A program made the translations under genes and the position numbers. A stretch of DNA of 64,000 bases from Heptranchias perlo (lineage: Eukaryota): assembly GCF_035084215.1 (NCBI RefSeq), contig NC_090346.1, forward strand, positions 9,672,001-9,736,000, read 5' to 3'. The notes beneath the pieces are model-generated. The model did no database searches. It was not told the DNA's origin and saw only the letters and a program-made list of their open reading frames with translations. Positions within the stretch are counted from its first letter, which is position 1, and every line of letters starts with the position of its first letter. This document shows, piece by piece, positions 1 through 64,000 of the stretch.

Positions 1-1187
1 AACAAGACATCCCAACTCCTCTATTCAATGTTCTGACCAATGAAACCAAGCATGCCGAATGCCTTCTTCACCACCCTATCCACCTGTGACTCCACTTTCA
101 AGGAGCTATGAACCTGTACTCCTAGATCTCTTTGTTCTATAACTCTCCCCAACGCCCTACCATTAACAGAGTAGGTCCTGGCCCGATTCAATCTACCAAA
201 ATGCATCACCTCACATTTATCTAAATTAAACTCCATCTGCCATTCATCGGCCCACTGGCCCAATTTATCAAGATCCCGTTGCAATCCTAGATAACCTTCT
301 TCACTGTCCACAATGCCGCCAATCTTGGTGTCATCTGCAAACTTACTAACCATGCCTCCTAAATTCTCATCCAAATCATTAATATAAATAACAAATAACA
401 GCGGACCCAGCACCGATCCCTGAGGCACACCGCTGGTCACAGGCCTCCAGTTTGAAAAACAACCCTCTACAACCACCCTCTGTCTTCTGTCGTCAATCCA
501 ATTTTGTATCCAATTGGCTACCTCACCTTGGATCCCGTGAGATTTAACCTTATGTAACAACCTACCATGCGGTACCTTGTCAAAGGCTTTGCTGAAGTCC
601 ATGTAGACCACGTCTACTGCACAGCCCTCATCTATCTTCTTGGTTACCCCTTCATAAAACTCAATCAAATTCGTGAGACATGATTTTCCTCTCACAAAAC
701 CATGCTGACTGTTCCTAATCAGTCCCTGCCTCTCCAAATGCCTGTAGATCCTGTCTCTCAGAATACCCTCTAACAACTTACCCACTACAGATGTCAGGCT
801 CACCGGTCTGTAGTTCCCAGGCTTTTGCCTGCCGCCCTTCTTAAACAAAGGCACAACATTTGCTACCCTCCAATCTTCAGGCACCTCACCTGTAGCTGTC
901 GATGATTGAAATATCTCTGCTAGGGGACCCGCAATTTCCTCCCTAACCTCCCATAACGTCCTGGGATACATTTCATCAGGTCCCGGAGATTTATCTACCT
1001 TGATGCGCGTTAAGACTTCCAGCACCTCCCTCTCTGTAATATGTACACTCCTCAAGACATCACTATTTATTTCCCCAAGTTCCCTAACATCCATGCCTTT
1101 CTCAACCGTAAATACCGATGCGAAATATTCATTTAGGATCTCACCCATCTCTTGTGGTTCCGCACATAGATGACCTTGTTGATCCTT
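1..1187 (-). mobile_element. CR1-type LINE (subfamily A), 5'-truncated RT region, continues off the window start; abuts the 3' end of the CR1 at 1188-4982
   Basis: RT motifs NYRPVSLTS, QHGF, YMDFSKAFDKVPH, GVPQGSVLGP, FADD in ORF 21..1250; premature TAG at 21-23; junction placed by comparison with the 3' end of the sister CR1 at 44460-44500. Confidence 0.9.
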
Positions 1188-4100
1188 ATCTCCTTCTTGA
1201 ATACATCTAATGACTTGGCCTCCACTGCCTTCTGTGGTAGAGAATTCCACAGGTTCACCACCCTCTGAGTGAAGAAATTTCTCCTCATCTCGGTTCTAAA
1301 TGGCATACCCTGTATCTGTGACCCCTGGTCCTGGACTCCCCAGCCATCGGGAACATCCTCCCTGCATCTAGTCTGTCCAGTCCTGTTAGAATTTTATATG
1401 TTTCGATGAGATCACCTCTCATTCTTCTAAACTCTAGTGAATATAGGCCTAGTCGACCCAATCTCTCCTCATACGTCAGTCCTGCCATCCCAGTAATCAG
1501 TTTGGTTAACCTTCGTTGCACTCCCTCCACAGCAAGGACATCCTTCCTCAGATAAGGAGACCAAAACTGCACACAATACTCCAGATGTGGTCTCACCAAG
1601 GCCCTGTATAACTGCAGTAAGACATTCCCGCTCCTGTACTCAGATCCTTTTGCAATGAAGGCCAACATACCATTCGCCTTCCTAACTGCTTGCTGCACCT
1701 GAATGCTCGCTTTCAGCAACTGGTGTACAAGGACATCCAGGTCTCGTTGCACCTCCTCTTTTCCTAATCTATCACCATTCAGATAATAATCTGCCTTTCT
1801 GTTTTTACAACCAAAGTGGATAACCTCACATATATCCACATTATACTGCATCTGCCATGTTCTTGCCCACTCACCCAACTTGTCTAAATCATATTGGAGC
1901 CTCTTTGCATCCTCCTCACAGCTCACATTCCACCCCAGCTTTGTGTCGTCTGCAAACTTGGAAATGTTACATTTAGTTCCCTCATCCAAATCATTGATAT
2001 GTATTGTGAATAGCTGGGGCCCAAGCACTGATCCCTGCGGTACCCCACTAGTCACTGCCTGCCACCCGGAAAAAGACCCGTTTATTCCTACTCTCTGTTT
2101 CCTGTCTGTCAACCAGTTCTCAATCCATGCCAGTATATTCCCCCCAATCCCATGTGCTTTAATTTTGCACACTAACCTCTTGTGTGGAACCTTATCAAAA
2201 GCCTTCTGAAAATCCAAATACACCATATCCACTGGTTCTCCCCTATCTATTCTACTAGTTACATCCTCAAAAAATGCCAGTAGATTTGTTAAGCATGATT
2301 TCCCTTTCATAAACCCATGCTGACTTTGTCCAATCCCATTAATGCCCTCCAAGTGTCCTGTTATCACATCTTTTATAATAGACTCTAGCATTTTCCCCAC
2401 TACTGATGTTAGGCTAACTGGTCTGTAATTCCCTGTTTTTTCTCTCCCTTTTTTAAATAGTGGGGTTACATTTGCCACCCTCCAATCTGTAGGAACTGTT
2501 CCAGAGTCTATGGAATTTTGGAAGATGATCACCAATGCATCCACTATTTCCAGGGCCACTTCCTTTAGTACTCTGGGATGTAGATTATCAGGCCCTGGGG
2601 ATTTGTCAGTCTTTAGCCCCATTAATTTCCCTCGCACTTTTTTTTTTACTACTGGTTTCCTTCAGTTCCTCCCTCTCACTAGACCCTTGGTTCCCTAACA
2701 TTTCTGGGAGGTTATTTGTGCCCTCCTTTGTGAAGACAGAAGCAAAGTATGTGTTTAATTGTTCTGCCATTTCTTTGTTCCCCAATATAATTTCCCCCAT
2801 TTCTGACTGTAAGGGACCTGCATTTGTCCTCACTAATCTTTTTCTCTTGACATATTTACAGAAGCATTTACAGTCAGTTTTTATGTTCCCTGCTAGTTTA
2901 CTCTCATACTCTATTTTTCCCCTCTTAATCAATCTCTTTGTTCTCCTTTGCTGAATTCTGAACTGCTCCCAATCCTCAGGCTTGCCGCTTTTTCTGGCAA
3001 TTTTATACGTCTCCTCTTTGGATCTAATACTATCCCTAATTTCTTTTGTAAGCCACGGATGAGCCACCTTTCCTGTTTTATTTTTGCGCTAGTCAGGAAT
3101 GAATAATTGTTGTAATTCCTGCACATGTTCTTTAAATATTAGCCATTGCCTATCCACCGTCATCCCTTTTAGTAAAGTTCCCCAATCTATCATAGCAAAC
3201 TCGCACCTCATACTGTCGTAATTTCCTTTATTTAGATTCAGGACCCTAGTTTTGGATTCAACTACTTCACTCGCCATCTTAATGAGGAATTCTTTCATGT
3301 TATGGTCGCTCTTCCCTAAGGGACCCCGCACAACAAGATTGTTAATTAATCCTTTCTCATTGCACAATACCCAGTCTCGGATCGCCTGCTCTCTAGTTGG
3401 TTCCTCAACGTATTGGTCTAGAAAACCATCACGTACACACTCCAGGAATTCCTCCCCCACAGTATTATTGATAATTTGGTTTGACCAATCTGTATGTAGA
3501 TTAAAGTCACCCATGATTATAGTTGTACCCTTCTTACATGCATCTCTAATTTCCTGTTTAATGCCCTCCCCTACATTTCCACTACTGTTTGGGGGCCTAT
3601 AGACAATCCCCAGCAATGTTTTCTGCCCCTTGGTGTTTCTTAGCTCCACCCATTCAGATTCCACATCGTGATTTTCCGAGCCAATATCCTTCCTCACTAT
3701 TGCATTGATTTCCTCCTTTACTAACAACGCTACCCCACCTCCTTTCCCTTTTTGTCTGTCCTTCCTAAATATTGAATACCCCTGGATGTTCAGTTCCCAT
3801 CCTTGGTCACCCTGCAGCCATGTCTCCGTAATCGCAACTATATCATACCCGTTAATATCTATCTGCGCTGTTAATTCATCTACCTTATTGCGAATGCTCC
3901 GCACATTAAGACACAATGCCTTTAGACTTTTTTTTTTAAGATTGCTAGTCATTTTAGTTTTATTTTGCACTATGGCCCTATTTGTTTTTTGCCCTTGTTT
4001 TCTCTGCCTTCCACTATTGCTGCTTCCCTTTCTGCCTTTTGTTTCTATCCTTGTTTCCCCCTCCTGTCTCCCTGCTCAGGTTCCCATCCCCCTGCCATTC

Positions 4101-4982
4101 TAGTTTAAACCTTCCCCAACAGCACTAGCAAACACCCCCGCAAGGACATTGGTCCCGGTCCTGCTCGGGTGTAACCCGTCTCGCTTGTACAGGTCCCACC
4201 TTCCCCAGAACCGGTCCCAATGTCCCAGGAATCTAAATCCCTCCCTCCTACACCATCCCTGCAGCCACGCATTCATCTGGTCTATCCTCCTGTTCCTATA
4301 CTTACTAGCATGTGGTACTGGTAGTGATCCTGAGATCACTACCTTTGAGGTCCTGCTTTTTAATTTATCTCCTAACTCCTTAAATTCATCTTGCAGGACC
4401 GCATCCCTTTTTTACCTATGTCGTTGGTACCGATATGGACCACGACTACTGGCTGTTCACCCTCCCTCTCCAGAATGCCCTGCAGCCGCTCCGTGACATC
4501 CTTGACCCTAGCACCAGGGAGGCAACGTACCATCCTGGAGTCACGTTTGCGGCCGCAGAAATGCCTATCTGTTCCCCTTACAATTGAATCCCCTATCACT
4601 ATAGCCCTGCCGCTCTTCTTCCTCCCCTCCTGTGCAGCAGAGCCAACCGTGGTGCCACGAACTTGGCTCTTGCTGCTTTCCCCTGATAAGCCTTCTCCCC
4701 CAACAGTATCCAAAGCGGTATATCTGATTGAGAGGGAGATGGCCCCAGGGGACTCCTGCTCTACCTGCCTAGTCCTTTTACTCTATCTGACAGTCACCCA
4801 TTTCCTTTCTGCCTGCGTAATCTTTACCTGCGGTGTGACCACCTCACTGAACGTGCTATCCACGATAGTCTCAGCATCACGGATGCTCTACAGTGAATCC
4901 ACCCGCAGTTCCAGCTCCGAAATGCGGTTAGCCAGTAGCTGCAGCTGGACACACTTCCTGCACACATGGTCGCCAGGGACAT
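1188..4982 (-). mobile_element. Near full-length decayed CR1 LINE (subfamily B): ORF1 with SGNH esterase-like domain, ORF2 with APE endonuclease and RT
   Basis: ORF1 pieces 4100-4980 (VIGDSIVRG, CLPGARVKDV, VHIGTND); endonuclease 3089-3970 (ITETWL, YRPP, GDFN, SDH); RT 1285-2637 (GVPQGSVLGP, FADD); broken by stops and frameshifts. Confidence 0.93.
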
Positions 4983-17054: not shown

Positions 17055-17571
17055 TCATACTACACAGATCTCGCAGATTTTCTTAACACAGTACATCAAG
17101 GATGCCAATGCTATAGTGTTGTGGAGTCTTTTCCTGTGAATATCATCTTTTCTAACCAGAACCACGGGCGTGGATGAAGTGAGTGTGTTCAGAGGTAACC
17201 GGGAGAGTTTGCAGGTGTCATACTCCACTTGGTACTTGCAGCAGGGGTCGAATTGCCATGAAATGCCATATAGAGCTGCGCAGGCCACACTGATGGCCCC
17301 GATAGGCAGGGTTATGTAACGGGTGTATTCTGGAGCCAGTGCTAATGGGGTTAACAGGCAGACTGATCCCGCGATAACAGATGTTTTATGCAAGCAATTC
17401 CCGACTGTGATCCAGCGTGCCGTCTCATCCCCAATTCGGGTTGGCTCAATGATGATATACTTGTACTGGGTCTCCAGGGCTTGCTCCAGCTCATATTCAA
17501 ATTGCTCATGTGCGTTCTCCCCATTGTAGATTTCACGGACAATATAACAGTCTGTTGAATTCAGTGTTCCC
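17055..17571 (-). CDS. TMEM11: Transmembrane protein 11 (mitochondrial), coding exon 2
   Basis: DCYIVREIYNGENAHEQFEYELEQALE...WQFDPCCKYQVEYD...RKDDIHRKRLHNTIALA; acceptor ttttttttacctctgcag before 17571; phase fits exon 1. Confidence 0.97.
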
Positions 17572-17849
17572 CTGCAGAGGTAAAAAAAAAGCATGTAACA
17601 TGTAAGATGGGAAATGAGGGAGACGAGAATTTATAACAATCTGGCAACTCTTAGGGACATCAGCCGAGAAGCAGCTGTAGTTAAATTGAAGTACGTCATT
17701 TCCCCCCACCCTCCAACCTACAGCTTAAAGAGGACAGCAAAATGGGATACATTAGTTGTGGCAATTTTAGTTCAGCTCACAGATTTTTTTTAAAAACTAG
17801 TTATTTATAATTCTTCATCAAAAAAAATTAACGCCATTGATTTATAAGA

Positions 17850-41434: not shown

Positions 41435-42212
41435 ATGTAAACGATGTCAATAGACAAGGTTGTAGAATTTCACAAAAAGCAGTTCAAAGATTTTAAAACA
41501 ACACAAACTTCAACAATTATTGCGAACGAAGACTAACTTTAAAAAAAGTTATCCCAAAAGATTGTCGAGTTTATGCACAAGTTTTACATGTGCATTTTGG
41601 GTGGGTATTTACTGTCCTGCATGAAGCAGATCAGTCACACAATTGAAAAAACTAACTGGGTTTTAAAAAAAACTACAGTATATTTGGCTAAAATTTAATT
41701 AAATCCATCTTTCTAATGTCACAAATCAATGTTTGTGGAGAAATAAATGTATGTGGTTACAATTTTCACTCCACATCTATAAGGGGCCAACAGAATGAGA
41801 ATGTATTGTATCAAGTGCATAGTGTTAGGTTACTGAGGTGACAAGATGGTGCTCACTATCAGAATATTTATAAGCACATGTCCAAAAAGTTTTTTCAAAT
41901 AAACCTACAGGTTTGATTAAAAATCTGAGCGTTATTAATAGTCCCAATACTGCCATTTTTGAAAGCAACCCAACATCTGATCAAGGGTGAACACTTGTTA
42001 AGTTTGCTTAACATCTGGTGAAACAAAATCAAAATGAGGGCTTTTCATTCAGGAAGAGGTTTGAGCATTTTCTCCCAACCCTGGGATCCACAGTACTGAC
42101 AAAAGGAAGTTACACACATACATCATGACTGGTTCCACAGCATTCTCCCAAACTCTGTATTTAATCTATTATGAGTCCACCAATTCTTGCAATTCTGAAT
42201 TGTATCTACAGT

Positions 42213-44651
42213 AACCAACTAGAGAACAGGCGATCCTAGACTGGGTATTGTGCAATGAGAAAGGATTAATTAACAATCTTGTTGTGCGGGGTCCCTTAGG
42301 GAAGGGCGACCATAACATGAAAGAATTCCTCATTAAGATGGAGAGTGAAGTAGTTGAATCCAAAACTAGGGTCCTGAATCTAAATAAAGGAAATTACAAA
42401 AGTACGAGGTGCGAGTTGGCTATGATAGATTGGGGAACTTTACTAAAAGGGATCACGGTGGATAGGCAATGGCTAATATTTAAAGAACATGTGCAGGAAT
42501 TACAACAATTATTCATTCCTGTCTGGCGCAAAAATAAAACAGGAAAGGTAGCTCATCCGTGGCTTACAAAAGAAATTAGGGATAGTGTTATATCCAAAGA
42601 GGAGACATATAAAATTGCCAGAAAAAGCGGCAAGCCTGAGGATTGGGAGCAGTTTAGAATTCAGCAAAGGTGGACAAAGAGATTGATTAAAAGGGGAAAA
42701 ATAGAGTATGAGAGTAAACTAGCAGGGAACATAAAAACTGACTGTAAAAGCTTCTATAAATGTCAAGAGAAAAAGATTAGTGAAGACAAATGCAGGTTCC
42801 TTACAGTCAGAAATGAGGGAAATTATAATGATGTGGAGATGCCGGTGATGGACTGGGGTTGACAATTGTAAACAATTTTACAACAATTATAATGGGGAAC
42901 AAAGAAATGGCAGAACAATTAAACACATACTTTGGTTCAGTCTTCACAAAAGGAGGACACAAATAACATCCCAGAAATGTTAGGGAACCAAGGGTCTATT
43001 GAGAGGGAGGAACTGAAGGAAACCAGTATTAGTAAAAAAAAGAAAGTGCTAGGGAAATTAATGGGACTAAAGGCTGACAAATCCCCAGGGCCTAATGATC
43101 TACATCCCAGAGTACTAAAGGAAGTGGCCCTGGAAATAGTGGATGCATTGGTAATCATCTTCCAAAATTCTATAGACTCTGGAACAGTTCCCACAGATTG
43201 GAGGGTGGCAAATGTAACCCCACTATTTAAAAAAGGAGGGAGAAAAAACAGGGAACTGCAGACCAGTTAGACTAACATCAGTAGTGGGGAAAATGCTAGC
43301 GTCTATTATAAGATGTGATAACAGAACACTTGGGAGGCATTAACGGGATTGGACAATGTCAGCATTGGTTTAGGAAAGGGAAATCATGCTTAACAAATCT
43401 ACTGGAGTTTTTTGAGGATGTAACTAGTGGAATAGATAGGGGAGAACCAGTGGATGTGGTGTATTTGGATTTTCAGAAGGCTTTTGATGAGGTCCCACAC
43501 AAGAGGTTAGTGTGCAAAATTAAAGCACATGGGATTGGTGGTAATATACTGGCATGGATTGAGAATTGGTTGACAGACAGGAAACAGAGAGTAGGAATAA
43601 ACGGGTCTTTTTCCGGGTGGCAGGCAGTGACTAGTGGGGTACCGCAGGGATCAGTGCTTGGGCCCCAGCTATTCACAATATATATCAATGATTTGGATGA
43701 GGGAACTAAATGTAACATTTCCACGTTTGCAGACGACACAAAGCTGGGGTGGAATGTGAGCTGTGAGAAGGATGCAAAGAGGCTCCAATGTGATTTAGAC
43801 AAGTTGGGTGAGTGGGCAAGAACATGACAGATGCAGTACAACGTAGATAAATGTGAGGTTATCCACTTTGGTTGTAAAAACAGAAAGGCAGATTATCTGA
43901 ATGGTGATAGATTGGGAAAAGAGGAGGTGCAATGAGACCTGGGGGTCCTTGTACACCAGTCGCTGAAAGCGAGCATTCAGGTGCAGCAAGCAGTTAGGAA
44001 GGCAAATGGTATGTTGGCTTTCATTGCAAGAGGATTTGAGTACAGGAGCAGAGATGTCTTACTGCAGTTGTACGGGGCCTTGGTGAGACCACATCTGGAG
44101 TATTGTGTGCAGTTTTGGCCTCCTTATCTGAGGAAGGATGTCATTACCATGGAGGGAGTGCAATGAAGGTTTACCAGACTGATTCCTGGGATGGCAGGAC
44201 TGACGTATGAGGAGAGATTGGGTCGACTAGGCCTATATTCACTAGAGTTTAGAAGAATGAGAGGTGATCTGATTGAAACATATAAAATTCTAGCAGGACT
44301 AGACAGACTAGATGCAGGGAGGATGTTCTCGGTGGCTGGGGAGTCCAGAACCAGGGGTCACAGTCTCAGGATACGGGGTATGCCATTTAGAACCTAGATG
44401 AGGAGAAATTTCTTCACTCAGAGGGTGGTGAACCTGTGGAATTCTCTACCACAGAAGGCAGTGGAGGCCAAGTCATTAGATGTATTCAAGAAGGAGACAG
44501 ATATATTTCTTAATGCTAAAGGGATCAAGGGATATGAGGAAAAAGCGGGAACAGGGTACTGAGTTAGACGATCAGCCAGGATAATTTTGAATGGCGGAGC
44601 AGGCCCAAAGGGCCGAATGGCCTACTCTTGCTCCTATTTTCTATGTTTCTA
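42213..44651 (+). mobile_element. 5'-truncated CR1 (subfamily B) in the SMCR8 intron, antisense to the gene
   Basis: Near-identical to the reverse complement of 1188-3400; RT motifs; intact 3' UTR ending ctcctattttctatgtttcta. Confidence 0.93.
42831..42884 (-). mobile_element. 54-bp Penelope-like 3' terminus inserted in the CR1
   Basis: Matches 57773-57826; duplication aattataatg at 42821-42830 and 42885-42894; sister CR1 (2780-2795) lacks the insert. Confidence 0.9.
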
Positions 44652-44755
44652 GTACTAAGCTTAGCTTTTGCTCCAACATTCAGTCAGATCTGAATTCACT
44701 ACAAAGTAAACCAGTCCTTAAATATAGATATATTGTACCCATATTTAATACGCAC

Positions 44756-47133
44756 CTCTGAAGTCCAATGAGTTTCCAGGTCTGTAAATGGTTGACATGC
44801 AAAGGGAATGTTACCCATTGCTTTATAGAGTCTGCAGCCCTGCCGCAGTGGGGGACAAATATTGACAAAGCATTGACAAGCTTCTTGACTTTTCCTTCTT
44901 GTTCACCTACTATTACAAGTGTCCGCCCAGACAGCAAAGAAAAAATTGCCTGCTGTGCAAAAGAATATTGCCTTATAAACCACAGCGAATTCTTCCCAGA
45001 ATGCTTCTTGCGCTTTCCAGAGAGCCTCTTTGATGGACTGGTTGGGAAGGCTGGAGATGGAGTCCTATCAGAACATAAAGATGCACTAATGTAACTCATG
45101 TTGTCCAAGTACTCATCTACTGGAATTTGAGCTGTTTCTCTATTACCAGATAAATCACTGTACTCTTTTTCGTAGGTAGATAATACTTGATCAGCAGCAT
45201 CATATAATCCATCTCCCTCATTTTGCTGTGGGAAATCACCGTGGAATATTCGGTCTATGGTTTTACTGCGTTGTGGTGGAACATTGACTACTCCATCACT
45301 GTACTCTTCAGTTACAAATGTAGGTACTGATTTAGTAAAATTTGGGCTTTCTGTCCCAATACAACAAGTGGAGTCTACATGCTCAGATAAAACAGACAAT
45401 GTTATGGTATTATTTTCAACATCAGCATTGCTAAATCCATTACCACAGTTTAGATTTGCATCAGTTTGCACAAGATCTGTACTCAGCTGCCTTTCTTCTT
45501 CATTGTCTAAAGCAGGTTCTTCTTCATGTATTGCACTTGGATAGGTGGCCTTAAGATCTTCGGGTATCAGAGATTCGGTGGTACTGAGAACTTCAATGCT
45601 GTCCTCACTGTTTGTCCGCTTGGTGACTGCAAATTTCCTCCTCACAACTTCTGGATGCTGACACTGCAAGTTTGTTTGGCTGTCAGACTTGGAGGAAAAT
45701 ACTGGGGCTGGGCAGGATTTTTCTGTGCCCAGCACTTCAATGCTTTCACCACTACTGATACTTCCCTTTTCTTTCCCTTCCAATTCAAGATAGTCTGAAG
45801 TTCCTAGAGGATTTTTACATGGGATCGAATCAGCCACAGTCCCATGGTAACTCTCTACATTGACTTGCTCCAGTTTAATAGGCACAGACTCCACACAAGA
45901 CTTGTACGATTCAAAGCTGGTGGCCTCATTGGATAAACAAGGGTGTTCCAAAACCTTTGGACCGAGAATATTAAAACCTGGAAGCAGTTTGTCACAGTGT
46001 TGTTGCTTTTCAGTTTGTTCTTCATCAGTAAAGAGCAGTGGGTCTTCAAACAGAAAGGAAGTTATTTGCTGCTGTTGAAGAAGCTCTTTTTCAATTTGGC
46101 TGGTAATCAAATAGCATACATCACCTCTGAAGAATTTCTCTACCTGCCTAAGTTGTTCTAAAGTTTGATTAAAAAAGTAACTATCGCAAAGTTCTTCTAA
46201 GGTTTTCAGCTTTTTTTCAAAGCATTTTGCGGACTTAGCCCGTGTGAATTTGGGCGTGTAAGATCTTCTATCGGAAAAGCTAATTTTTTCACACAATTCG
46301 TCTGTATTCGGCAACTGTTCCAGCCCGGTGTCGGATTGTTCTATGCCACTAACTGGCTCATAAGAAAAATAATCGCCATCTTTCGTTTTTTTGTATGAAT
46401 AAGTTCTAATCTGCATTAAAAGATCTTGATGTTCAATTATACACTTTTCCACATTGGCTAACTCGTTGGCTTTTTCTATTGCTACCGACGAGTAGTATCC
46501 TTTATCGTTGGATCTTTTCTGGATTTCCGTTTCATTATGTAACACATTCCGAGTGTACTCCAGGTCCTGGAGTTTCTTTTCCAGTTCATTGGCAAAAGCT
46601 TTCCTATTTCCAGTTTTCAAACACTCGGAGGCTTTGGAAAACTCTTCCGAAAGCTCCTGGAACTCCTCCATGATCTTGTTCTCATCGGCGGAGATGTAAG
46701 CCATGCAGAACGGCCTGACGAAGCCTCTCGCCTCCAAGTCGTAGAGAGTCAAGTGATGAACGTAGGCGAAAGCCCCTTCCTTGGAGTCACCCAGCACCAC
46801 CTTGGAGTCTTCCACGAAGTTGAGCTTGGGATAGCTGGTCCCAGGAGGGTGCCCCACGAAGGAGGCTTGATAATCCACAGACATGATCCTGAGAGAGAAA
46901 TAGTTGAGATCAAAGTTACCGCGGGCATTGTCCGGGATCGTTAACAAAGGCTGAGGGCCTACCTGCTCGGAAAACTCGGAAATCAGAATGAAATCCTTCT
47001 CGAATTTAGCCGTGGCCGTCTTGGACCAGGGGTTTTCGGGTTGGAATTGGAAAGGGGGCACCGAGTCTTCGCTGTACTGCTCCCCATAGTCATCATCGCG
47101 GGTGAGAGCCACGACATCAGGGGCAGTGATCAT
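44756..47133 (-). CDS. SMCR8: SMCR8 (C9orf72 complex subunit, longin/DENN) coding exon 1
   Basis: MITAPDVVAL...DFILISEFSEQVGPQPLLTIP...HHLTLYDLEARGFVRPFCMAYIS; ATG 47133-47131; donor AG|gtgcgt; 2378 nt, phase 2 fits exon 2. Confidence 0.97.
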
Positions 47134-47269
47134 ATTTCCACCTTCCCAGACAGGGTATATAAAGCACAAAAAAAGAGCAACCCCCTTAGCAACGCCACCA
47201 CCTCCTCACAAACCACCATTTTGTTTCCATCTGACCGGGAAAGGGGGGGGGGGGGGAGGGGGGTGTGTG

Positions 47270-49900: not shown

Positions 49901-51426
49901 CTACCTGACAATGTGGAAAATTGACCAGGTATGTCCTGTCCACAAAAAAAAAGCAGGACAAATCCAATCCGGCCAATTACCGCCCCATCAGTCTACTCTC
50001 AATCATCAGCAAAGTGATGGAAGGTGTCGTTGACAGTGCTATCAAGCGGCATTTACTCACTAATAACCTGCTCACCGATGCTCAGTTTGGGTTCCGCCAG
50101 GACCACTCGGCTCCAGACCTTATTACAGCCTGGGTCTAAACATGGACAAAAGAGCTGGATTCCAGAGGTGAGGTCAGAGTGACTACTATTGACATCAAGG
50201 CAGCATTTGACAGAGTGTGGCATCAAGGAGCCCTAGTAAAATTGAAGTCAATGGGAATCAGGGGGAAAACTCTCCAGTGGCTGGAGTCATACATAGCACA
50301 AAGGAAGATGGTGGTGATTGTTGGAGGCCAATCATCTCAGCCCCAGGACACTGCTGCAGGAGTTCCTCAGGGCAGCGTCCTGGGCCCAACCATCTTCAGC
50401 TGCTTCATCAATGACCTTCTCTCCATCATAAGGTCAGAAATGGGGATGTTCGCTGATGATTGCACTGTGTTCAGTTCCATTCACAACCCCTCAGATAATG
50501 AAGCAGTCCGTGCCCGCATGAAGCAAGACCTGGACAACACCCAGGCTTGGGCTCATAAGTGGCAAGTAACATTCGCACCAGACAAGTGCCAGGCAATGAC
50601 CATCTGCAACAAGAGTCTAACCACCTCCCCTTGACATTCAATGGCATTACCATCGCCGAATCCCCCACCATCAACATCCTGGGTGTCACTATTGACCAGA
50701 AACTTAACTGGACCAGCCACATAAATACCGTGGCTACAAGAGCAGGTCAGAGGCTGGGTATTCTGCGGCGAGTGACTCACCTCCTGACTCCCCAAAGCCT
50801 TTCCACCATCTACAAAGCACAAATCAGGAGTGTGATGGAATATTTTCCACTTGCCTGGATGAGTGCAGCTCCAACAACACTTAAGAAGCTCGACACCATC
50901 CAGGACAAAGCAGCCCGTTTGATTGGCACCGCATCCACCACCCGAAACATTCACTCCCTTCACCACTGGCGCACTTTGGCTGCAGTGTGTACCATCCACA
51001 GGATGCACTGCAGCAACTCGCCAAGGCTTCTTCGACAGCACCTCTCAAACCAGTGACTTCTACCACCTAGAAGGACAAGAGCAGCAGGCACATGGGAACA
51101 ACACCACCTGCACGTTCCCCTCCAAGTCAGACACCATCCCGACTTGGAAATATATTGTAAACAATTTTACAACACCAAGTTACAGTCCAATGATTTTATT
51201 TGAAATTTACAAGCTTTCGGAGAAATCTATCGCCGTTCCTTCATCGTCGCTGGGTCAAAATCCTGGAACTCCCTTCCTTACAGCACTGTGGGAGAACCTT
51301 CACCACACGGACTGCAGCGGTTCAAAAAGGCGGCTCACCACCACCTTCTCAAGGGCAATTAGGGATGGGCAATAAATGCTGGCCTTGCCAGCGATGCCCA
51401 CATCCCGTGAACGAATAAAAAAAAAA
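49900..51426 (+). mobile_element. 5'-truncated poly(A)-tailed LINE of a distinct CR1/L2-group family, containing a Penelope-like insert
   Basis: ANYRPISLLS, QFGFR, DIKAAFDRVWH, GVPQGSVLGP, FADD; ends gaataaaaaaaaaa. Confidence 0.85.
51154..51221 (-). mobile_element. Diverged Penelope-like terminal fragment
   Basis: Resembles 57807-57875 with several mismatches; flanked by gaaatatat / gaaatctat. Confidence 0.8.
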
Positions 51427-56240: not shown

Positions 56241-57857
56241 AATGACGATGAAGTATTGGAATCAATTTGATTCTGTGTGGCAGATTCAGTAATCCAAAGC
56301 ATGAGACAGGTAAGTATGCTGTACTCCAGAGCATTGGTCATGATTGACCATCATTGATGAGAGGTGTATCTTTCAGCTTGGGCTGAGATTCTTCACACTT
56401 GGCTCCAAATAACAATTTAATGGGTAGGCTTGACAAGCAGTGAAAGCTCATCAGAACTCTAAGCTGGTAAACTACATGGTTATAGTGGGTTGAATTCCAT
56501 CAGTGCACCTATACATACATAGGGACCCCTAAGCCTTGACTTTTGTCAACTTGCACCTAAGTTCTCTGTGCTTGCATAAGTGGACTGACCCCCATAGAGA
56601 GAAAGTGTTTACTTTATATCGGGCAAATGGCAACTCGATTTACGTGGACATTGATTTCAAGATTCTTAGGCATGTTGATGTGTTTCAATGCATGAGGTTG
56701 ATGCAAAAACTGAATACCCTCTGTTGCAATTCGTGCTACTTCCCAATACTCTTTATTCGTGCTCACTGCAAAAGTCAACTTCTATACCAAGCCTACACTT
56801 CCTATGAATTGGAAGTTTGACCTTGTGCGTAAAATATCTGGGATAGTGAGCCACTGAGTGAACAATCTACTGTTACGCTAACAGGATATGCCCCCATGTA
56901 ATGCAGATCTCTCTGATAGGCTGACAGATTGTGTAGCTCAGGCTAAAACTCCCAATTTGACTACCATGGGAGAGAAATATACACAGAGGCATGTTGTACC
57001 AGCAAATGAAAATAACAGATACAGTACTTCTACCAATTTTTATCTGAGGACAACATAAGCATTTCATAATACTTGAGTCCTTATTTCAGATGAAATAGAT
57101 ATGGCTGTAGCTGCAGTAACTTGGATGCATGGTTTCCAAGTGATCTGGAAGCACTAGGGCTGCCATACAGATATACCTTGCTGAACAGTTTGCTCACATC
57201 GCAGAACAAAAAAGTCTGTTCCTGATTTTAGTAAGTTTCCTTGAGGTAAACGAGTTTTTAATCAGTCAGCGTCCAGGTAGTAGGAGCTTAAACTACTGGC
57301 CTTTGGGTCTTCTAAAAAGCTTAGCCTAATGTGACCATCGTGCAACTATTGTCACCGTGACAATCTTGCATATATTAACATTTCACATGCCAGAAATTTT
57401 CATCTGAAACCTATGAAATAACGTAACTATTGCCCTCAAAGGATCTAAAATTTGATGAGCTACAGTTCAAAAATCTTTGGGCCTTCTAAGTCTTTTACAG
57501 CTAGGAAAATTTCTGTTGCAATTTAACAAGTGATGCCCCCAGATCAAGTCATGTTTTTGCTTTACCAAGGGACAGATAAACTCCTAGCAGACATAGCAGT
57601 TAACAGAAACCAGTTTGAGTTTAGCACAGCTTAAGTTTCATATATTAAGATATAATGCTCAAATGTTTATGATTGAAGGAGAAAGGATCTCCATTCCATC
57701 ATAACATACACCAGAATCTGATCAAGTGTATTGGATTCAGGAAACTATAGTAAATGCAGTTCATTAATGATGATGTGGAGATGCCGGTGATGGACTGGGG
57801 TTGACAATTGTAAACAATTTTACAACACCAAGTTATAGTCCAGCAATTTTATTTTAA

Positions 57858-57898
57858 ATTCACAAGCTTTCGGAGATTTTCTCCTTCCTCAGGCAAAT
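57858..57898 (-). ncRNA. Minimal hammerhead ribozyme motif (left arm)
   Basis: Mirror of 59411-59451. Confidence 0.7.
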
Positions 57899-58148
57899 GT
57901 TTCAAGATCTCCTTGAAGCCTACGCATTTATACATATTGAACAATAATACATGGTGTTTACAGACTGCCCCTGCAACTGCCCGTTGCCAAGGCAATCACC
58001 GTGTTCAGACAGAGAGGTGTTACCTGCAGAACCTCCGAATACACATTCAACAAAAAAACAAACAGGGAAAAAAAACAGAGAAAAAAAAAACACAGAGAGA
58101 GGCAGAAACATCCGGAAGGCAGAGAGAGCCAGCAAATGACCCATTATA

Positions 58149-58652
58149 TTAAAAACAGATAACATTTGTTCGCTGGTGGGGTAACGTGTAGCGTGACATG
58201 AACCCAAGATCCCGGTTGAGGCCGTCCTCATGGGTGCGGAACTTGGCTATCAATTTCTGCTCGACGATTTTGCGTTGTCGTGTGTCTCGAAGGCCGCCTT
58301 GGAGTACGCTTACCCGAAGGTCGGTGGATGAATGTCCATGACTGCTGAAGTGTTCCCCGACTGGGAGGGAACCCTCCTGTTTGGCGATTGTTGCGCGGTG
58401 TCCGTTCATCCGTTGTCGCAGCGTCTGCATGGTCTCGCCAATGTACCATGCTCTGGGGCATCCTTTCCTGCAACGTATGAGGTAGACAACGTTGGCTGAG
58501 TCACAGGAGTATGAACCATGCACCTGGTGGGTGGTGTCATCTCGTGTGATGGTGGTATCTGTGTCGATGATCTGGCATGTCTTGCAGAGGTTACCGTGGC
58601 AGGGTTGTGTGGCGTCGTGGACGCTGTTCTCTTGAAAGCTAGGTAGTTTTCT
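58149..58652 (-). pseudogene. 5'-truncated Penelope-like ORF: Cys-rich linker plus GIY-YIG endonuclease (left arm)
   Basis: PCHGNLCKTC...CDSANVVYLIRCRKGCPRAWYIGET...LRQRMNGHR...VGEHF...GLNRDLG; no RT domain. Confidence 0.9.
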
Positions 58653-58656
58653 AGGT

Positions 58657-59160
58657 AGAAAACTACCTAGCTTTCAAGAGAACAGCGTCCACGACGCCAC
58701 ACAACCCTGCCACGGTAACCTCTGCAAGACATGCCAGATCATCGACACAGATACCACCATCACACGAGATGACACCACCCACCAGGTGCATGGTTCATAC
58801 TCCTGTGACTCAGCCAACGTTGTCTACCTCATACGTTGCAGGAAAGGATGCCCCAGAGCATGGTACATTGGCGAGACCATGCAGACGCTGCGACAACGGA
58901 TGAACGGACACCGCGCAACAATCGCCAAACAGGAGGGTTCCCTCCCAGTCGGGGAACACTTCAGCAGTCATGGACATTCATCCACCGACCTTCGGGTAAG
59001 CGTACTCCAAGGCGGCCTTCGAGACACACGACAACGCAAAATCGTCGAGCAGAAATTGATAGCCAAGTTCCGCACCCATGAGGACGGCCTCAACCGGGAT
59101 CTTGGGTTCATGTCACGCTACACGTTACCCCACCAGCGAACAAATGTTATCTGTTTTTAA
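58657..59160 (+). pseudogene. 5'-truncated Penelope-like ORF: Cys-rich linker plus GIY-YIG endonuclease (right arm)
   Basis: Mirror of 58149-58652, open from the palindrome centre to TAA 59158-59160. Confidence 0.9.
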
Positions 59161-59410
59161 TATAATGGGTCATTTGCTGGCTCTCTCTGCCTTCCGGATG
59201 TTTCTGCCTCTCTCTGTGTTTTTTTTTTCTCTGTTTTTTTTCCCTGTTTGTTTTTTTGTTGAATGTGTATTCGGAGGTTCTGCAGGTAACACCTCTCTGT
59301 CTGAACACGGTGATTGCCTTGGCAACGGGCAGTTGCAGGGGCAGTCTGTAAACACCATGTATTATTGTTCAATATGTATAAATGCGTAGGCTTCAAGGAG
59401 ATCTTGAAAC

Positions 59411-59451
59411 ATTTGCCTGAGGAAGGAGAAAATCTCCGAAAGCTTGTGAAT
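59411..59451 (+). ncRNA. Minimal hammerhead ribozyme motif (right arm)
   Basis: ATTTGC-CTGAGGA-A-GGAGA-aaa-TCTCC-GAAA-GC-TT-GTGAAT; followed by AATAAA 59456-59461. Confidence 0.7.
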
Positions 59452-61199
59452 TTAAAATAAAATTGCTGGACTATAACTTGGTGTTGTAAAATTGTTTACA
59501 ATTCATTAATGATGCCTTTGCTCATGGTAAGTTCTAATGGTCTGTACACTTACCGCCCAGAGAAAATGAACTTTGGATAGAAGTGGCTGGGTGTGGTGGT
59601 CTCAACCAACGACCATTATTGAAACAGAGTCTGTTCGTTTTTTGAGGGGAAATTAGTTGCTTGAAAAGGAGAAATATTAAAGGGTATGGGGAGCGAGCAG
59701 GAGATTGGGTTTAGACTAGGTGGCTTGTGTGGAGAAAAAAGTACGTGCAGACTTGATGGGCTCAGTGGCCCATGGTTGTGCAGTGACATTCTATTAATGG
59801 ATAACAATCGTCATACTCACAGTGAGTGGCAAACTAACTAACACCGCCATCGGTCAAATCTCCGGAGTATCTGGAAAAGTACATTCCAATACCCTGTTTA
59901 CTGTGTTTTGCAATTTGTTCTGCAGCTTTTGCTGGAAGGGGAGGTCCACACTGGGCAACAAATGTGTAAACTGTATATGGATTGGCTGCTGGGGCGAATA
60001 AAGAGGCCACGCCAATGGCACATTAACCATGCTCACTGCCAGTGCTTTACTTCTGGAGCAGAATCACCCCCCAGAGGCGCATAGCTTGTCCCATCTCACA
60101 GCACACCCTCTGAAAGTGATTCTTTAATATTACGGGGAATCCAACACACAGGATTTTCAAACATAAACCTAATTTTTACACGTTTACATTCTCATCATCC
60201 TTTAATTCTGATATAATTCCCTGGTGAATACAATAAAGCAGTACTTTTAGTTACTAAAGCACTTTAAACACTAACCAGCAGCAAATTCACCCTTAGAAAA
60301 GCAGAATACTAATGAAAGTATCATGAGATTTCAAATGATTATTTATATTTGGTCATGTAACTTGTGTACAATTCTATTAGTTCTGAGTAGTAATATCCTG
60401 TGGTGTCTAACAATTAAATTGTATATTATCACAGTTCACGTTTTTTGACTTGTGAAATAGTTACATTGGAGACTGAACATCGTGCCTTATTTGGGGGAAC
60501 TCATAATCAAAGGCTGTGATTGGCTAAATTAGTCTTCTAAAAGTGCTGGTATACTCCCCTTGGACCATCATATTAGAATTTGTTATCATTAGCCCTTTAC
60601 ATTAAGGTTATTTATTTGCTGCTGCAGAGCCTATTGATCACTTTTAGCTGTACTGGAACTTAATGAGTCATTAATCACTTTTAATTTATATTGTGTGTGT
60701 CTCTCTCTGGCACCCAAATATAATTTCAAAAAACTTGTGGGAATATTGAACTGGACAGTTGTTTGACCATTGCTGGTGATTTTTGACATGAGACAAAACT
60801 GCTTGTAGAATGGTCAGTGGTGTGATAAGTCACTTGATATTTTCGCAGCTTCAAGTTAATTGCTTGCCATTATTGTCCCTAGAACACAAACTCGGGTACA
60901 TAAGCTGCACTGTTGTAAATTGAGTGCGAAAGTGTGCGCAAAGGATGACTACTGGGTTTTAAATTATTGGCCATTGGTCTCTCTTGAGGTCAAGTTGGGT
61001 AGAGTGCACGACAGTTTATATTGTACATGGCCTATTGGAAGGCGTTAGCATGGTGGCTGCCTCAATGTCCTTTTCTCATTCCGAGCTTTGTTATGTAAGA
61101 TTAGTTGTTGCAGTTCTTTGGGTTGTCAGTAGATGGTGCCGAGAGAACAACTTTCAATAACATTGACTTGCTCTGATTCAGCAACCAATTCAGTCAATG

Positions 61200-62245: not shown

Positions 62246-64000
62246 CTCCTCGAACTTGACTTCTTACTCCTCGGCGTCTGTTTCCCCCACTCTCGAGTCT
62301 CTGATGACTGACATCCGATCCATGGCTATTCACCCGAGTCCACGCCTGGCTCACTGAGTCCAACTGCAGTGTCCTGTATTAGCAGGAAAACACCTCATAA
62401 ATGTACTGCTCTTGCCCTGGCACAACCATTAAAGCCTCTCAGTGGTGCAAAAAAAAAGCTTAATCCCAAACATCACACAATTTTAATTATAAACTGTATA
62501 AAATGCTGAAAAAATGTGATATCTTCATATTTTTATGTTTGCTTGTGCCTATTGGACAATTGTAAATTTTCTGCACAGAAGCCACAGTACACTCTTGAGT
62601 ATTGTAGCTTTGACCCTGTTCCTGTGGAACTACAAGTGCTGCAATGTATGTCTCTTTCTCTCTCTCTTTCCTCACCCCCCCACCCACCCCCCCAATTGCT
62701 TTGTGCTGTTAATTGCAATGGTTTGTTGTCGGGTGTAATTGTTTCACAAAGGTACAGGGTGAAAACTACAACTTGTATGATGCAATACACACACTCTCAC
62801 TCTTGCAGACAGTGAAGAGATTGGACGATTTGATTGCTTGGTTTTACAGTATTTGACTTGTGAATGGTGGCTCTGCAGGGGGAATAAAACAATAATTTTG
62901 ATTGCTCGGTTTTCCGCTGGTTAAGTGGTGCTCATTGGTAATGTTTGGTGCTTTTATATTCGTAATTGGATTTTTAGCAACTTAACAGATAAATGGATAT
63001 TAATTTAAGCAATCATGGCTTTTTGCCTTATGGATGGGTATGCTATGAGGTCTCACAAAAGTGTACATGCAAGGTTTTAAATGAAATTAATTATATCAGT
63101 ATAACTAATTGGACAAACCTATTCACAGTGAAAACAAATACAAATTTCAGTTATCACCAGAACTCTGCAGAGTACCTCCTTGAATGTTTATCTTGGCTAT
63201 CTCTTAACTCTGTATGTTATATGTTGCTAGGATCAATGTGAAGGTGAGGAAATAGTGGTTGTATGCAGCATTGGATGACTCTTCAATCTGCAAAAGCAAA
63301 TGTTTCATTATTGGATGTTGAATTCAGTTTGGAAATTTTCTTGGGAAATGTCCACATCCCTTCTATTTTATAACGAGATCGGATCCTACTGAAAATAGAA
63401 ATACAAATGTACAGTACCTCCAAATGTCGTCAATTAGCCGGAATGGGCATTTCAGAGTCTATGTCTTCAAATGGTTTTTATGAAACTATCTGTAGTGCGA
63501 TATCGGATAAAGTTGCAGTAGTGGAAAAACACACATTATCTAAAACAACTGATCTGTTCTGAGTCTCCAGCTGTCACGCTCGTCATGAATGATGCGGGGC
63601 AGTACTTGTAGCATGATATATAATTAGCTCTATAACATAAGGTGAAGTAGTAATGGCTATAGGTCTGTCACTTGTGGTGATAGTAGGCTGTCAAGTCTGC
63701 TCTGCCGTTTTGTTGGCCTTCACTCTTTTAATCTCAATTTGTTGCCAAAAAAGCATTCTAGTCTTCATTTTCCCTTCTCAATTTCATCATTTCTCTCCTA
63801 ATAATAGGTTCAGACTCTTTCTGAAGAACAGTTGCACGGGTGCCACAGCTCTGATTTTTCTTGCCTAAGTGGCCATTGTTCATATCTGAACCCAGAGTAC
63901 TAGCGTCCCATCTGCAGCCCTGGCTAAAATCAGTTAACCTTTCACAGACTGAGAATTAAACTTGGGACTTTCCTATGGCTTCCTGCAATTACCTACCAAC

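What the first reader, a model, noticed from the sequence alone, without database searches (positions are those of the whole stretch)
57760..59514. 1.7-kb palindrome made by a Penelope-like GIY-YIG retroelement, with a one-sided 34-nt tail and target-site duplication
Seen: arms 57806-58653 and 58656-59503 (848 bp each) around a 2-nt GG spacer. I found no mismatch in the parts compared, including homopolymer lengths and all four mirrored ORF pairs. Only the left arm carries a 34-nt extension (57772-57805). ttcattaatgatg flanks both ends. Each arm holds a Cys-rich linker, a GIY-YIG nuclease, a 3' UTR and a hammerhead motif. Known: Penelope-like elements form inverted pseudo-LTR structures, and Drosophila virilis Penelope has a ~34-bp tail. 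Inference: a very recent insertion in which truncated cDNA folded back and copied itself, stopping 34 nt short of the primed end.
Basis: partly seen in the sequence, partly recalled or inferred. Interest (0 to 1): 0.85.

Follow-up and report, generated by a model that had tools for sequence, protein, structure and literature searches.

The report
Mirror-image shark Penelope-like retroelement insertion
This is a real, perfectly mirrored but incomplete copy of a known kind of jumping gene in a shark genome; the mirror layout is already described for this class, and what is useful here is that its joints and those of four nearby copies hint that both cut ends of the chromosome started copying the element's RNA.

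Summary
In detail: two 848-nt arms with no mismatch, a 2-nt centre, a one-sided tail and a 13-nt target-site duplication (TSD). It is a 5'-truncated, RT-less insertion of a Penelope-like retroelement with a Neptune-type zinc-finger linker. Three Heptranchias perlo RefSeq proteins match the arm at 165 of 166 residues. An inverted copy, one-sided tail, TSD, hammerhead motif and palindromic junction are all published features of these elements, so this is a new member of a known kind.

Four more copies lie in the window. Two tailless direct copies end at the same site as the inverted arms, so that site is a second fixed start site. In the 41.3-kb miniature palindrome only the tailless strand can be a self-fold-back. 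The large palindrome's centre is a 10-nt non-native insert, not a plain 2-nt loop.

Best model: the two target nicks prime at two RNA sites about 34 nt apart, with 2-5 nt of microhomology, and the products join head to head. Arm identity alone allows an age of up to about 2.5 million shark generations, so 'very recent' is not shown.

The parts
57760..57772 (.). Left copy of the 13-nt target-site duplication; its last 3 nt (CAT in element sense) may be shared with the element end
57773..57805 (-). One-sided 3' tail (33 nt clear of the TSD), between the two inferred reverse-transcription start sites
   Evidence: identical at 41401-41433 and 42831-42863; translated homologue in a Scyliorhinus torazame gene model P0072
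57806..58649 (-). Tail-bearing (direct) arm: native 3' part of the element, from the RT-EN linker to the 3' UTR
57864..57892 (-). Minimal hammerhead core in the left arm (core, helix II, GAAA, self-complementary AGCT in place of helix III)
   Evidence: activity not tested
58149..58649 (-). Truncated ORF, left arm: CX4CxxC linker plus GIY-YIG endonuclease, no RT, no start context
58650..58659 (.). 10-nt non-native junction insert containing the GG centre and an 8-mer copied from adjacent element sequence
58660..59160 (+). Truncated ORF, right arm (166 aa plus stop), identical to the left arm
58660..59503 (+). Tailless (inverted) arm, ending at the internal start site; last 2 nt overlap the TSD
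59417..59445 (+). Minimal hammerhead core in the right arm
59502..59514 (.). Right copy of the 13-nt target-site duplication
41304..41445 (+). Copy B, same family: miniature palindrome (47-nt tailless arm, 75-nt tailed arm) inside a 13-nt TSD (41304-41316, 41433-41445); separate insertion used as evidence
42821..42894 (-). Copy C: tail plus 22 nt inside a 10-nt TSD, inserted in a LINE whose sister copy near 2770-2800 shows the empty site
29090..29226 (+). Copy D: tailless direct copy of a sister subfamily with a variant hammerhead, 12-nt TSD
51147..51230 (-). Copy E: tailless direct copy, 91% identical, 9-nt TSD with one mismatch

Best explanation
A dead-on-arrival insertion of a shark Neptune-type Penelope-like retroelement, made by priming from both ends of the target break. 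The element's GIY-YIG endonuclease nicked both strands 13 nt apart (inferred from the TSD). One 3' end primed reverse transcription at the far end of the tail; the other primed at a second fixed site about 34 nt further in, each helped by 2-5 nt of pairing with the RNA (junction sequences shown; priming inferred). Copying stopped in the RT-EN linker. The tailless cDNA end snapped back on itself, leaving the templated 8-mer, and the two products were joined head to head and filled in, which gives two equal arms, one tail and a TSD (inferred). Whether the tail-primed cDNA was long and jumped onto the other cDNA's end, or short and met the returning fold-back strand near the tail boundary, cannot be told from the finished sequence. 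The copy lacks RT and the ORF start, so it cannot move by itself. Identity as a truncated inverted Penelope-like insertion: about 0.95. This two-ended route: the confidence given.
For: Family: 56 of 59 and 38 of 146 candidates were hits, the named ones all shark gene models; longer relatives carry an RT; 3 H. perlo proteins match at 165 of 166 residues. Fixed second site: the inverted arms of A and B and the direct tailless copies D and E all end within the same few bases. Microhomology: these 4 junctions overlap their TSD by 2+2+5+2 = 11 nt against a null mean of 3.0 (P 0.003) or 3.9 in AT-rich targets (P 0.01), and all 3 of 3 tailed copies have CAT at or one base into the TSD (P about 0.002 given the first). 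Polarity: in B only the tailless strand is a single self-fold-back. In A the tailless strand forms an 8-bp hairpin with a 4-nt loop at the first snap-back (-6.5 kcal/mol versus -2.6 for the other strand's equivalent). Biochemical precedent: the Anolis Poseidon protein nicks and extends both strands and starts at two RNA sites that delimit the tail (PMC11167929). The RNA 3' end here folds into a long stem-loop spanning both sites (z -2.6, 4 of 200 shuffles as good).
Against: Only 2 inverted copies and 5 insertions in all; the statistics are post hoc and the overlaps were counted by eye. B's junction could equally arise later by slippage between short direct repeats in a longer palindrome, which says nothing about priming. 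The native DNA just upstream of A's junction is known only through protein homologues, and A's centre can also be written as a slip-back on the tail-primed strand followed by a fold-back. [quoted passage not shown] That the element continues with CAT beyond the tail rests on one unnamed record (P0040). The longer 131-nt fold was not significant (z -1.5, 16 of 200).
Confidence: 0.6

Rival explanations
1. One reading: one cDNA primed at the tail end, truncated, folded back, copied itself, and was joined to the second nick about 34 nt short of its start, possibly through an endonuclease cut at the tail boundary.
For: Explains exact symmetry and identity with one priming event. Self-priming was proposed for palindromic junctions in Adineta elements (PMC3846280 Discussion), and endonuclease-mediated resolution was proposed for the tail (PMC8557442). 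A 3-bp CTA/TAG hairpin closes A's centre.
Against: 0 single-fold-back solutions for the tail-primed strand of B. In A it needs an extra 12-nt slip with no evident priming homology. Tailless direct copies D and E show the internal site is used as a 3' junction without any fold-back.
Confidence: 0.17
2. The insertion was first a longer, asymmetric inverted structure (typical inverted pseudo-LTR plus long direct copy) or two head-to-head copies, and the present centre was made later by host repair: centre deletion or cruciform cleavage with a templated insert, with the arms perhaps homogenised by conversion.
For: Longer inverted-pLTR structures with tail and TSD are the published norm, and microhomology-mediated deletions are common in them (PMC3846280). 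Short templated inserts and small-hairpin inverted duplications occur at repaired TPRT ends (10.1101/2024.12.14.628481). B has a 3-nt direct repeat at its junction.
Against: Native sequence ends at exactly mirrored positions in A (58649 and 58660) and within 6 nt in B, which two independent deletions would not be expected to give. This route still needs the two-site ends to explain the tail.
Confidence: 0.18
3. Sequencing or assembly artefact: a fold-back read or a join of two loci through the repeat.
For: Perfect identity with a 2-nt centre resembles fold-back reads (recalled); reads could not be examined, and consensus polishing could hide a few arm differences.
Against: Different unique flanks on each side, a 13-nt TSD, a tail and end points shared with four independent insertions, one with an empty-site control, and a templated junction insert. 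A fold-back read mirrors its flank and cannot create a TSD.
Confidence: 0.04

Closest known systems
Neptune (and Nematis) clade endonuclease-containing Penelope-like elements (PMC8557442, passages)
   Same: [quoted passage not shown]
   Different: Here the direct and inverted parts are the same length, so the whole insert is one palindrome with no RT. Insertion sites are ordinary AT-rich DNA, not microsatellites. No RT tree was built to separate Neptune from Nematis.
Adineta vaga Penelope elements Pen2/Pen2a/Pen3a (PMC3846280, passages and Discussion)
   Same: Inverted pLTR, 31-nt one-sided tail, 8-10-nt TSD, palindromes at the inverted junction read as self-priming.
   Different: Their junction palindromes are 18-38 nt and the authors invoke an antisense template; here the palindrome is 1.7 kb and is explained on a sense template by snap-back of cDNA.
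Poseidon element PAc of Anolis carolinensis (PMC11167929, main text)
   Same: Both target strands nicked and extended; two RT start sites that delimit the tail; AT-rich targets; hammerhead upstream of the start sites.
   Different: Different clade (no linker zinc finger). PAc initiation is reported as not homologous to the target, whereas these junctions show 2-5 nt of overlap. I saw no model of inverted copies in the parts read.
LINE-1 twin priming and dual priming (PMC2837659, passages)
   Same: Both target nicks prime reverse transcription, giving two inverted pieces inside one TSD, with junction microhomology.
   Different: Twin priming copies two different parts of the RNA with an internal deletion; here the same 848 nt are present twice and the second priming site is fixed.
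Drosophila virilis Penelope (PMC2377424, passages)
   Same: 34-37-bp terminal repeat, large inverted terminal repeats of variable size, TSD.
   Different: Penelope/Poseidon clade; the described inverted forms enclose a partial tandem with a full ORF.

Membership tests
Endonuclease-containing Penelope-like elements | GIY-YIG endonuclease with CCHH-type motif (two Cys between GIY and YIG) and conserved R, H, E, N | tested here: met
   Motif positions found in the 166-aa arm frame; Pfam GIY-YIG E 5e-4, slightly below the curated cut-off
Endonuclease-containing Penelope-like elements | Single ORF with RT upstream of the endonuclease | tested here: met
   Met for the family, not for this copy: P0057 (92% identical to the arm) has RVT_1, DKG and YIDD motifs upstream; this copy is truncated in the linker
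Endonuclease-containing Penelope-like elements | RT that groups with telomerase-like PLE RTs in a phylogeny | not tested
Endonuclease-containing Penelope-like elements | Inverted 5'-truncated copy and 30-40-nt one-sided tail | tested here: met
   feature definition from PMC8557442
Endonuclease-containing Penelope-like elements | Direct pseudo-LTRs from partial tandem insertion | tested here: inconclusive
   None of the 5 copies in the window is a tandem; no eukaryotic genome collection was searchable for a full-length copy
Endonuclease-containing Penelope-like elements | Target-site duplication | tested here: met
   5 of 5 copies, 9-13 nt; empty site seen for copy C only
Neptune clade | CX2-5CxxC zinc-finger-like linker before a C-terminal endonuclease | tested here: met
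   CHGNLCKTC at arm residues 17-25; shared with Nematis, absent from Penelope/Poseidon
Neptune clade | Placement in the Neptune rather than Nematis RT clade | not tested
   Assignment rests on the linker plus the vertebrate host; a preprint found only Neptune and Poseidon widely in vertebrates
Penelope/Poseidon clade | Absence of the linker zinc finger | tested here: not met
   Linker motif present
Minimal PLE hammerhead ribozyme | Conserved core, helix II with extra 5' nucleotide and G-C closing pair, palindromic 15.2-16.2, short helix I | tested here: met
   Pattern found at 3 places in the window, all in this family; helices I and II keep pairing despite changes in copy D; definition from PMC4209133. 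No Rfam match
Minimal PLE hammerhead ribozyme | Self-cleavage as a dimer | not testable with these tools
   Needs an in vitro assay; the dimer cofold did not predict the catalytic pairing, and the two motifs here are on opposite strands
LINE-1-type twin priming product | Two non-overlapping inverted fragments with an internal deletion | tested here: not met
   The two arms cover the same 848 nt; it works like two-ended priming but is not a classical twin-priming product

The most novel reading that the evidence does not exclude
Inverted Penelope-like insertions are made by a fixed two-site, two-ended priming reaction: one target nick pairs with the RNA at the tail end (probably at the ORF start), the other at a self-complementary site about 34 nt inside, and the tailless cDNA is the one that snaps back. 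In this shark family the reaction would routinely write perfect palindromes of any length into the genome, each a potential hairpin-RNA source and fragile site, and their junctions would be a genome-wide record from which the unsolved step of PLE transposition can be read.
Probability: 0.35. Interest if true: 0.55.

Novelty: new member of a known kind. Interest (0 to 1): 0.3.

Why it matters
As an object it is ordinary: one more truncated copy of an abundant shark retroelement with a published architecture. Its value is as a clean test case. PMC8557442 names the formation of tandem and inverted structures as an open problem of PLE biology, and PMC11167929 supplies two start sites but leaves later steps unvalidated. 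The five junction sets here give a concrete prediction (tailless-strand loop polarity, short pairing at both start sites) that can be checked across the whole shark genome by computation alone. A perfect 848-bp inverted repeat would also form long double-stranded RNA if transcribed and should be unstable in DNA (inference from general knowledge, not tested).

Tried and rejected
Rfam: 0 matches in the whole window at gathering threshold; 1 irrelevant match at E 8 in 59150-59560. PDB sequence search with a full-length relative: 0 matches. Host gene at the insertion site: Pfam on 150 of 160 stop-free frames of 75 aa or more (the 10 inside the palindrome left out) and on 104 of 140 frames of 35-74 aa beyond 52 kb (those starting after 54.5 kb) found no exon near the insertion. 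A weak Dpp_8_9_N match at 63322-63480 was below cut-off and had no homologue, so it was rejected. Six recalled topoisomerase-III motifs, tried because of recalled synteny with SMCR8, gave only hits in frames with nearby stops or in LINE sequence. A first one-sided microhomology null (P 3e-5) overstated the case and was replaced by two-sided nulls. Copy C's 5' junction can be read as a 6-nt inverted micro-arm but needs none, so it was dropped from the main count (with it: 15 nt over 5 junctions, P 0.0007). No empty-site paralogue was found in the window for A, B, D or E. The supplements of PMC11167929 yielded no text hits for six terms and their figures are not held.
Full report
Observation. 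Extending outwards from the centre gives two arms of 848 nt, 57806-58653 and 58656-59503, with no mismatch, around GG; the repeat finder agrees. The 13-mer TTCATTAATGATG occurs twice in the window, at 57760-57772 and 59502-59514. The flanks of the insert matched only themselves in the window. Between the left TSD and the left arm lie 33 nt (57773-57805) with no counterpart on the right.

Identity. Each arm has a stop-free frame of 166 native residues with a CX4CxxC linker, a GIY-YIG core with two internal cysteines and the conserved R, H, E and N (Pfam E 5e-4, just under cut-off). Homology searches gave 56 hits of 59 candidates at similar length and 38 of 146 longer ones; the named hits are all shark gene models. 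The cluster of the RT-bearing P0057 has 54 members; the 15 listed are all Heptranchias perlo. Three H. perlo proteins match the arm at 165 of 166 residues, and one of them shares two minority residues with it, so the host is H. perlo or a very close relative and the copy belongs to a young subfamily. Longer relatives carry RVT_1 with DKG and YIDD motifs. The linker motif marks Neptune and Nematis and is absent from Penelope/Poseidon (PMC8557442, passages); I call it Neptune-type on that basis and the vertebrate host, without a tree. A minimal hammerhead pattern occurs at 3 places in the window, all in this family, and copy D keeps helices I and II through base changes. It fits the PLE minimal motif (PMC4209133, parts 1-2 of 4) but matched no Rfam model.

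Four more copies. Blast of the arm found copies B (41.3 kb), C (42.8 kb), D (29.1 kb) and E (51.2 kb). All 5 of 5 have a TSD: 13, 13, 10, 12 and 9 nt, the last with one mismatch. C sits in a LINE whose sister copy (2109 of 2210 aligned bases identical) has the target once and no insert, which is a direct empty-site control for the family though not for the large palindrome. B is a miniature of the finding: inverted tailless arm, direct arm, tail, TSD. The tail is identical in A, B and C and a translated homologue appears in a catshark gene model, so it is element sequence. An artefact is therefore very unlikely; reads were not available to close the question.

Ends. The inverted arms of A and B and the direct copies D and E all end at the same site, inside a self-complementary 8-mer at the tail boundary. 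D and E have no fold-back, so this site is a regular 3' junction, which matches the two start sites delimiting the tail in the Anolis element (PMC11167929, parts 1-2 of 4). These 4 junctions overlap their TSDs by 11 nt in total (counted by eye) against a two-sided null mean of 3.0 (P 0.003), or 3.9 in AT-rich targets (P 0.01). All 3 tailed copies have CAT at or one base into the TSD (P about 0.002 given the first). One unnamed record suggests the element itself continues that way into a start codon (P0040); this is a single indirect witness. Against my reading, the Anolis paper reports initiation at sites not homologous to the target, and an endonuclease sequence preference could produce the same overlaps.

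Centres. In B, enumeration of single fold-backs gives a solution for the tailless strand (3-bp primer, 3-nt loop) and none for the tail-primed strand. In A, homologues have Ser before KLP in 28 of the 29 H. perlo proteins that cover the linker (37 examined) and in 65 of 68 matches over all fetched proteins, while the window reads Gly-Arg or Pro-Arg there. Native sequence thus ends symmetrically at 58649 and 58660, and the 10 nt between hold an 8-mer copied from the adjacent element sequence (chance about 0.003). On the tailless strand this is two successive snap-backs; on the tailed strand it needs a slip-back with no evident homology and then a fold. Both inverted copies therefore point to the tailless strand, but n is 2, the native DNA at A's junction is inferred from protein, and B could be a later slippage deletion.

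Mechanism. Shown: TSDs, fixed ends, tail origin, junction sequences, lack of RT. Inferred: staggered nicking, priming of both nicks at the two RNA sites, snap-back of the tailless cDNA, head-to-head joining and fill-in.

Age. Zero differences in 848 nt bounds arm divergence at 0.35%. At 7e-10 per base per generation (PMC10587355, abstract) the first difference is expected after about 0.8 million generations and the 95% bound is about 2.5 million. Instability of perfect palindromes (recalled) argues for youth, and arm-to-arm conversion (recalled) argues for caution. 'Very recent' is plausible but not shown.

Known versus new. An inverted truncated copy, a 30-40-nt one-sided tail and TSDs are described as typical (PMC8557442; PMC8969392, passages; PMC2377424, passages), and palindromes at the inverted junction were already read as self-priming (PMC3846280, passages and Discussion). 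Two-ended priming and small-hairpin inverted duplication are known for LINE-1 (PMC2837659 and 10.1101/2024.12.14.628481, passages). In six searches I found no paper on this shark family or on loop polarity and junction microhomology in Neptune elements. The library lacks most subscription papers: I did not see Arkhipova 2006 (Syst Biol), Evgen'ev and Arkhipova 2005 or Pyatkov 2004, nor the supplementary figures of PMC11167929, and any of these may already hold such observations. Passages of 10.64898/2026.07.22.740005 and PMC12910113 added nothing on inverted junctions.

Verdict. A real, well-formed example of a known structure: new member of a known kind, interest 0.3. The junction-polarity hypothesis is the only part with wider value, and it is cheap to test genome-wide.

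Noticed in passing
window 41304-41445: Miniature version of the same palindrome-plus-tail insertion with a 13-nt TSD; only the tailless strand can be a self-fold-back.
   Followed up: yes
window 42821-42894 and about 2770-2800: A 55-nt tailed copy inserted in a LINE; the 95%-identical sister LINE near the window start shows the empty site.
   Followed up: yes
window 29102-29130: Copy D has about 28 nt of partly repeated sequence at its 5' end (a 10-nt unit twice), suggesting template slippage; its hammerhead has a better-paired helix I than the large palindrome's.
   Followed up: partly
window 51147-51230: Older tailless copy (91% identical) that appears to interrupt another repeat; no second copy of that host repeat was found in the window.
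   Followed up: partly
window 59527-59532: A consensus-like splice donor GTAAGT lies 12 nt beyond the right TSD; whether the insertion hit a small exon was not resolved, and no Pfam match was found nearby.
   Followed up: partly
window 17058-17630 (-) and 44683-47205 (-): Host coding frames: a Mito_morph_reg (TMEM11-like, name recalled) frame, E 6e-75, and an 841-aa frame with a Folliculin domain (SMCR8-like, name recalled), E 2e-9.
   Followed up: no
window 24-4782 (-) and 42210-44497 (+): Near-complete LINE (esterase-like ORF1, AP endonuclease, RT) at the window start, preceded by a second RT frame at 24-1295, with a 95%-identical truncated sister at 42-44 kb in opposite orientation.
   Followed up: partly
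P0065, P0048, P0063, P0038, P0103 (H. perlo RefSeq); P0072, P0091 (S. torazame): Pieces of this element are annotated as exons of host isoforms (XRCC5, FAM204A, a cytochrome P450, FAM174A-like, DIPK2Ab, septin 5a, IQCK): frequent exonisation or mis-annotation.
   Followed up: no
P0040 (unnamed record): Its frame reads the tail in antisense and then the endonuclease in sense, as another inverted PLE junction would.
   Followed up: partly
window 63322-63480 (+): Weak Dpp_8_9_N Pfam match below cut-off with no homologue found; probably chance.
   Followed up: yes
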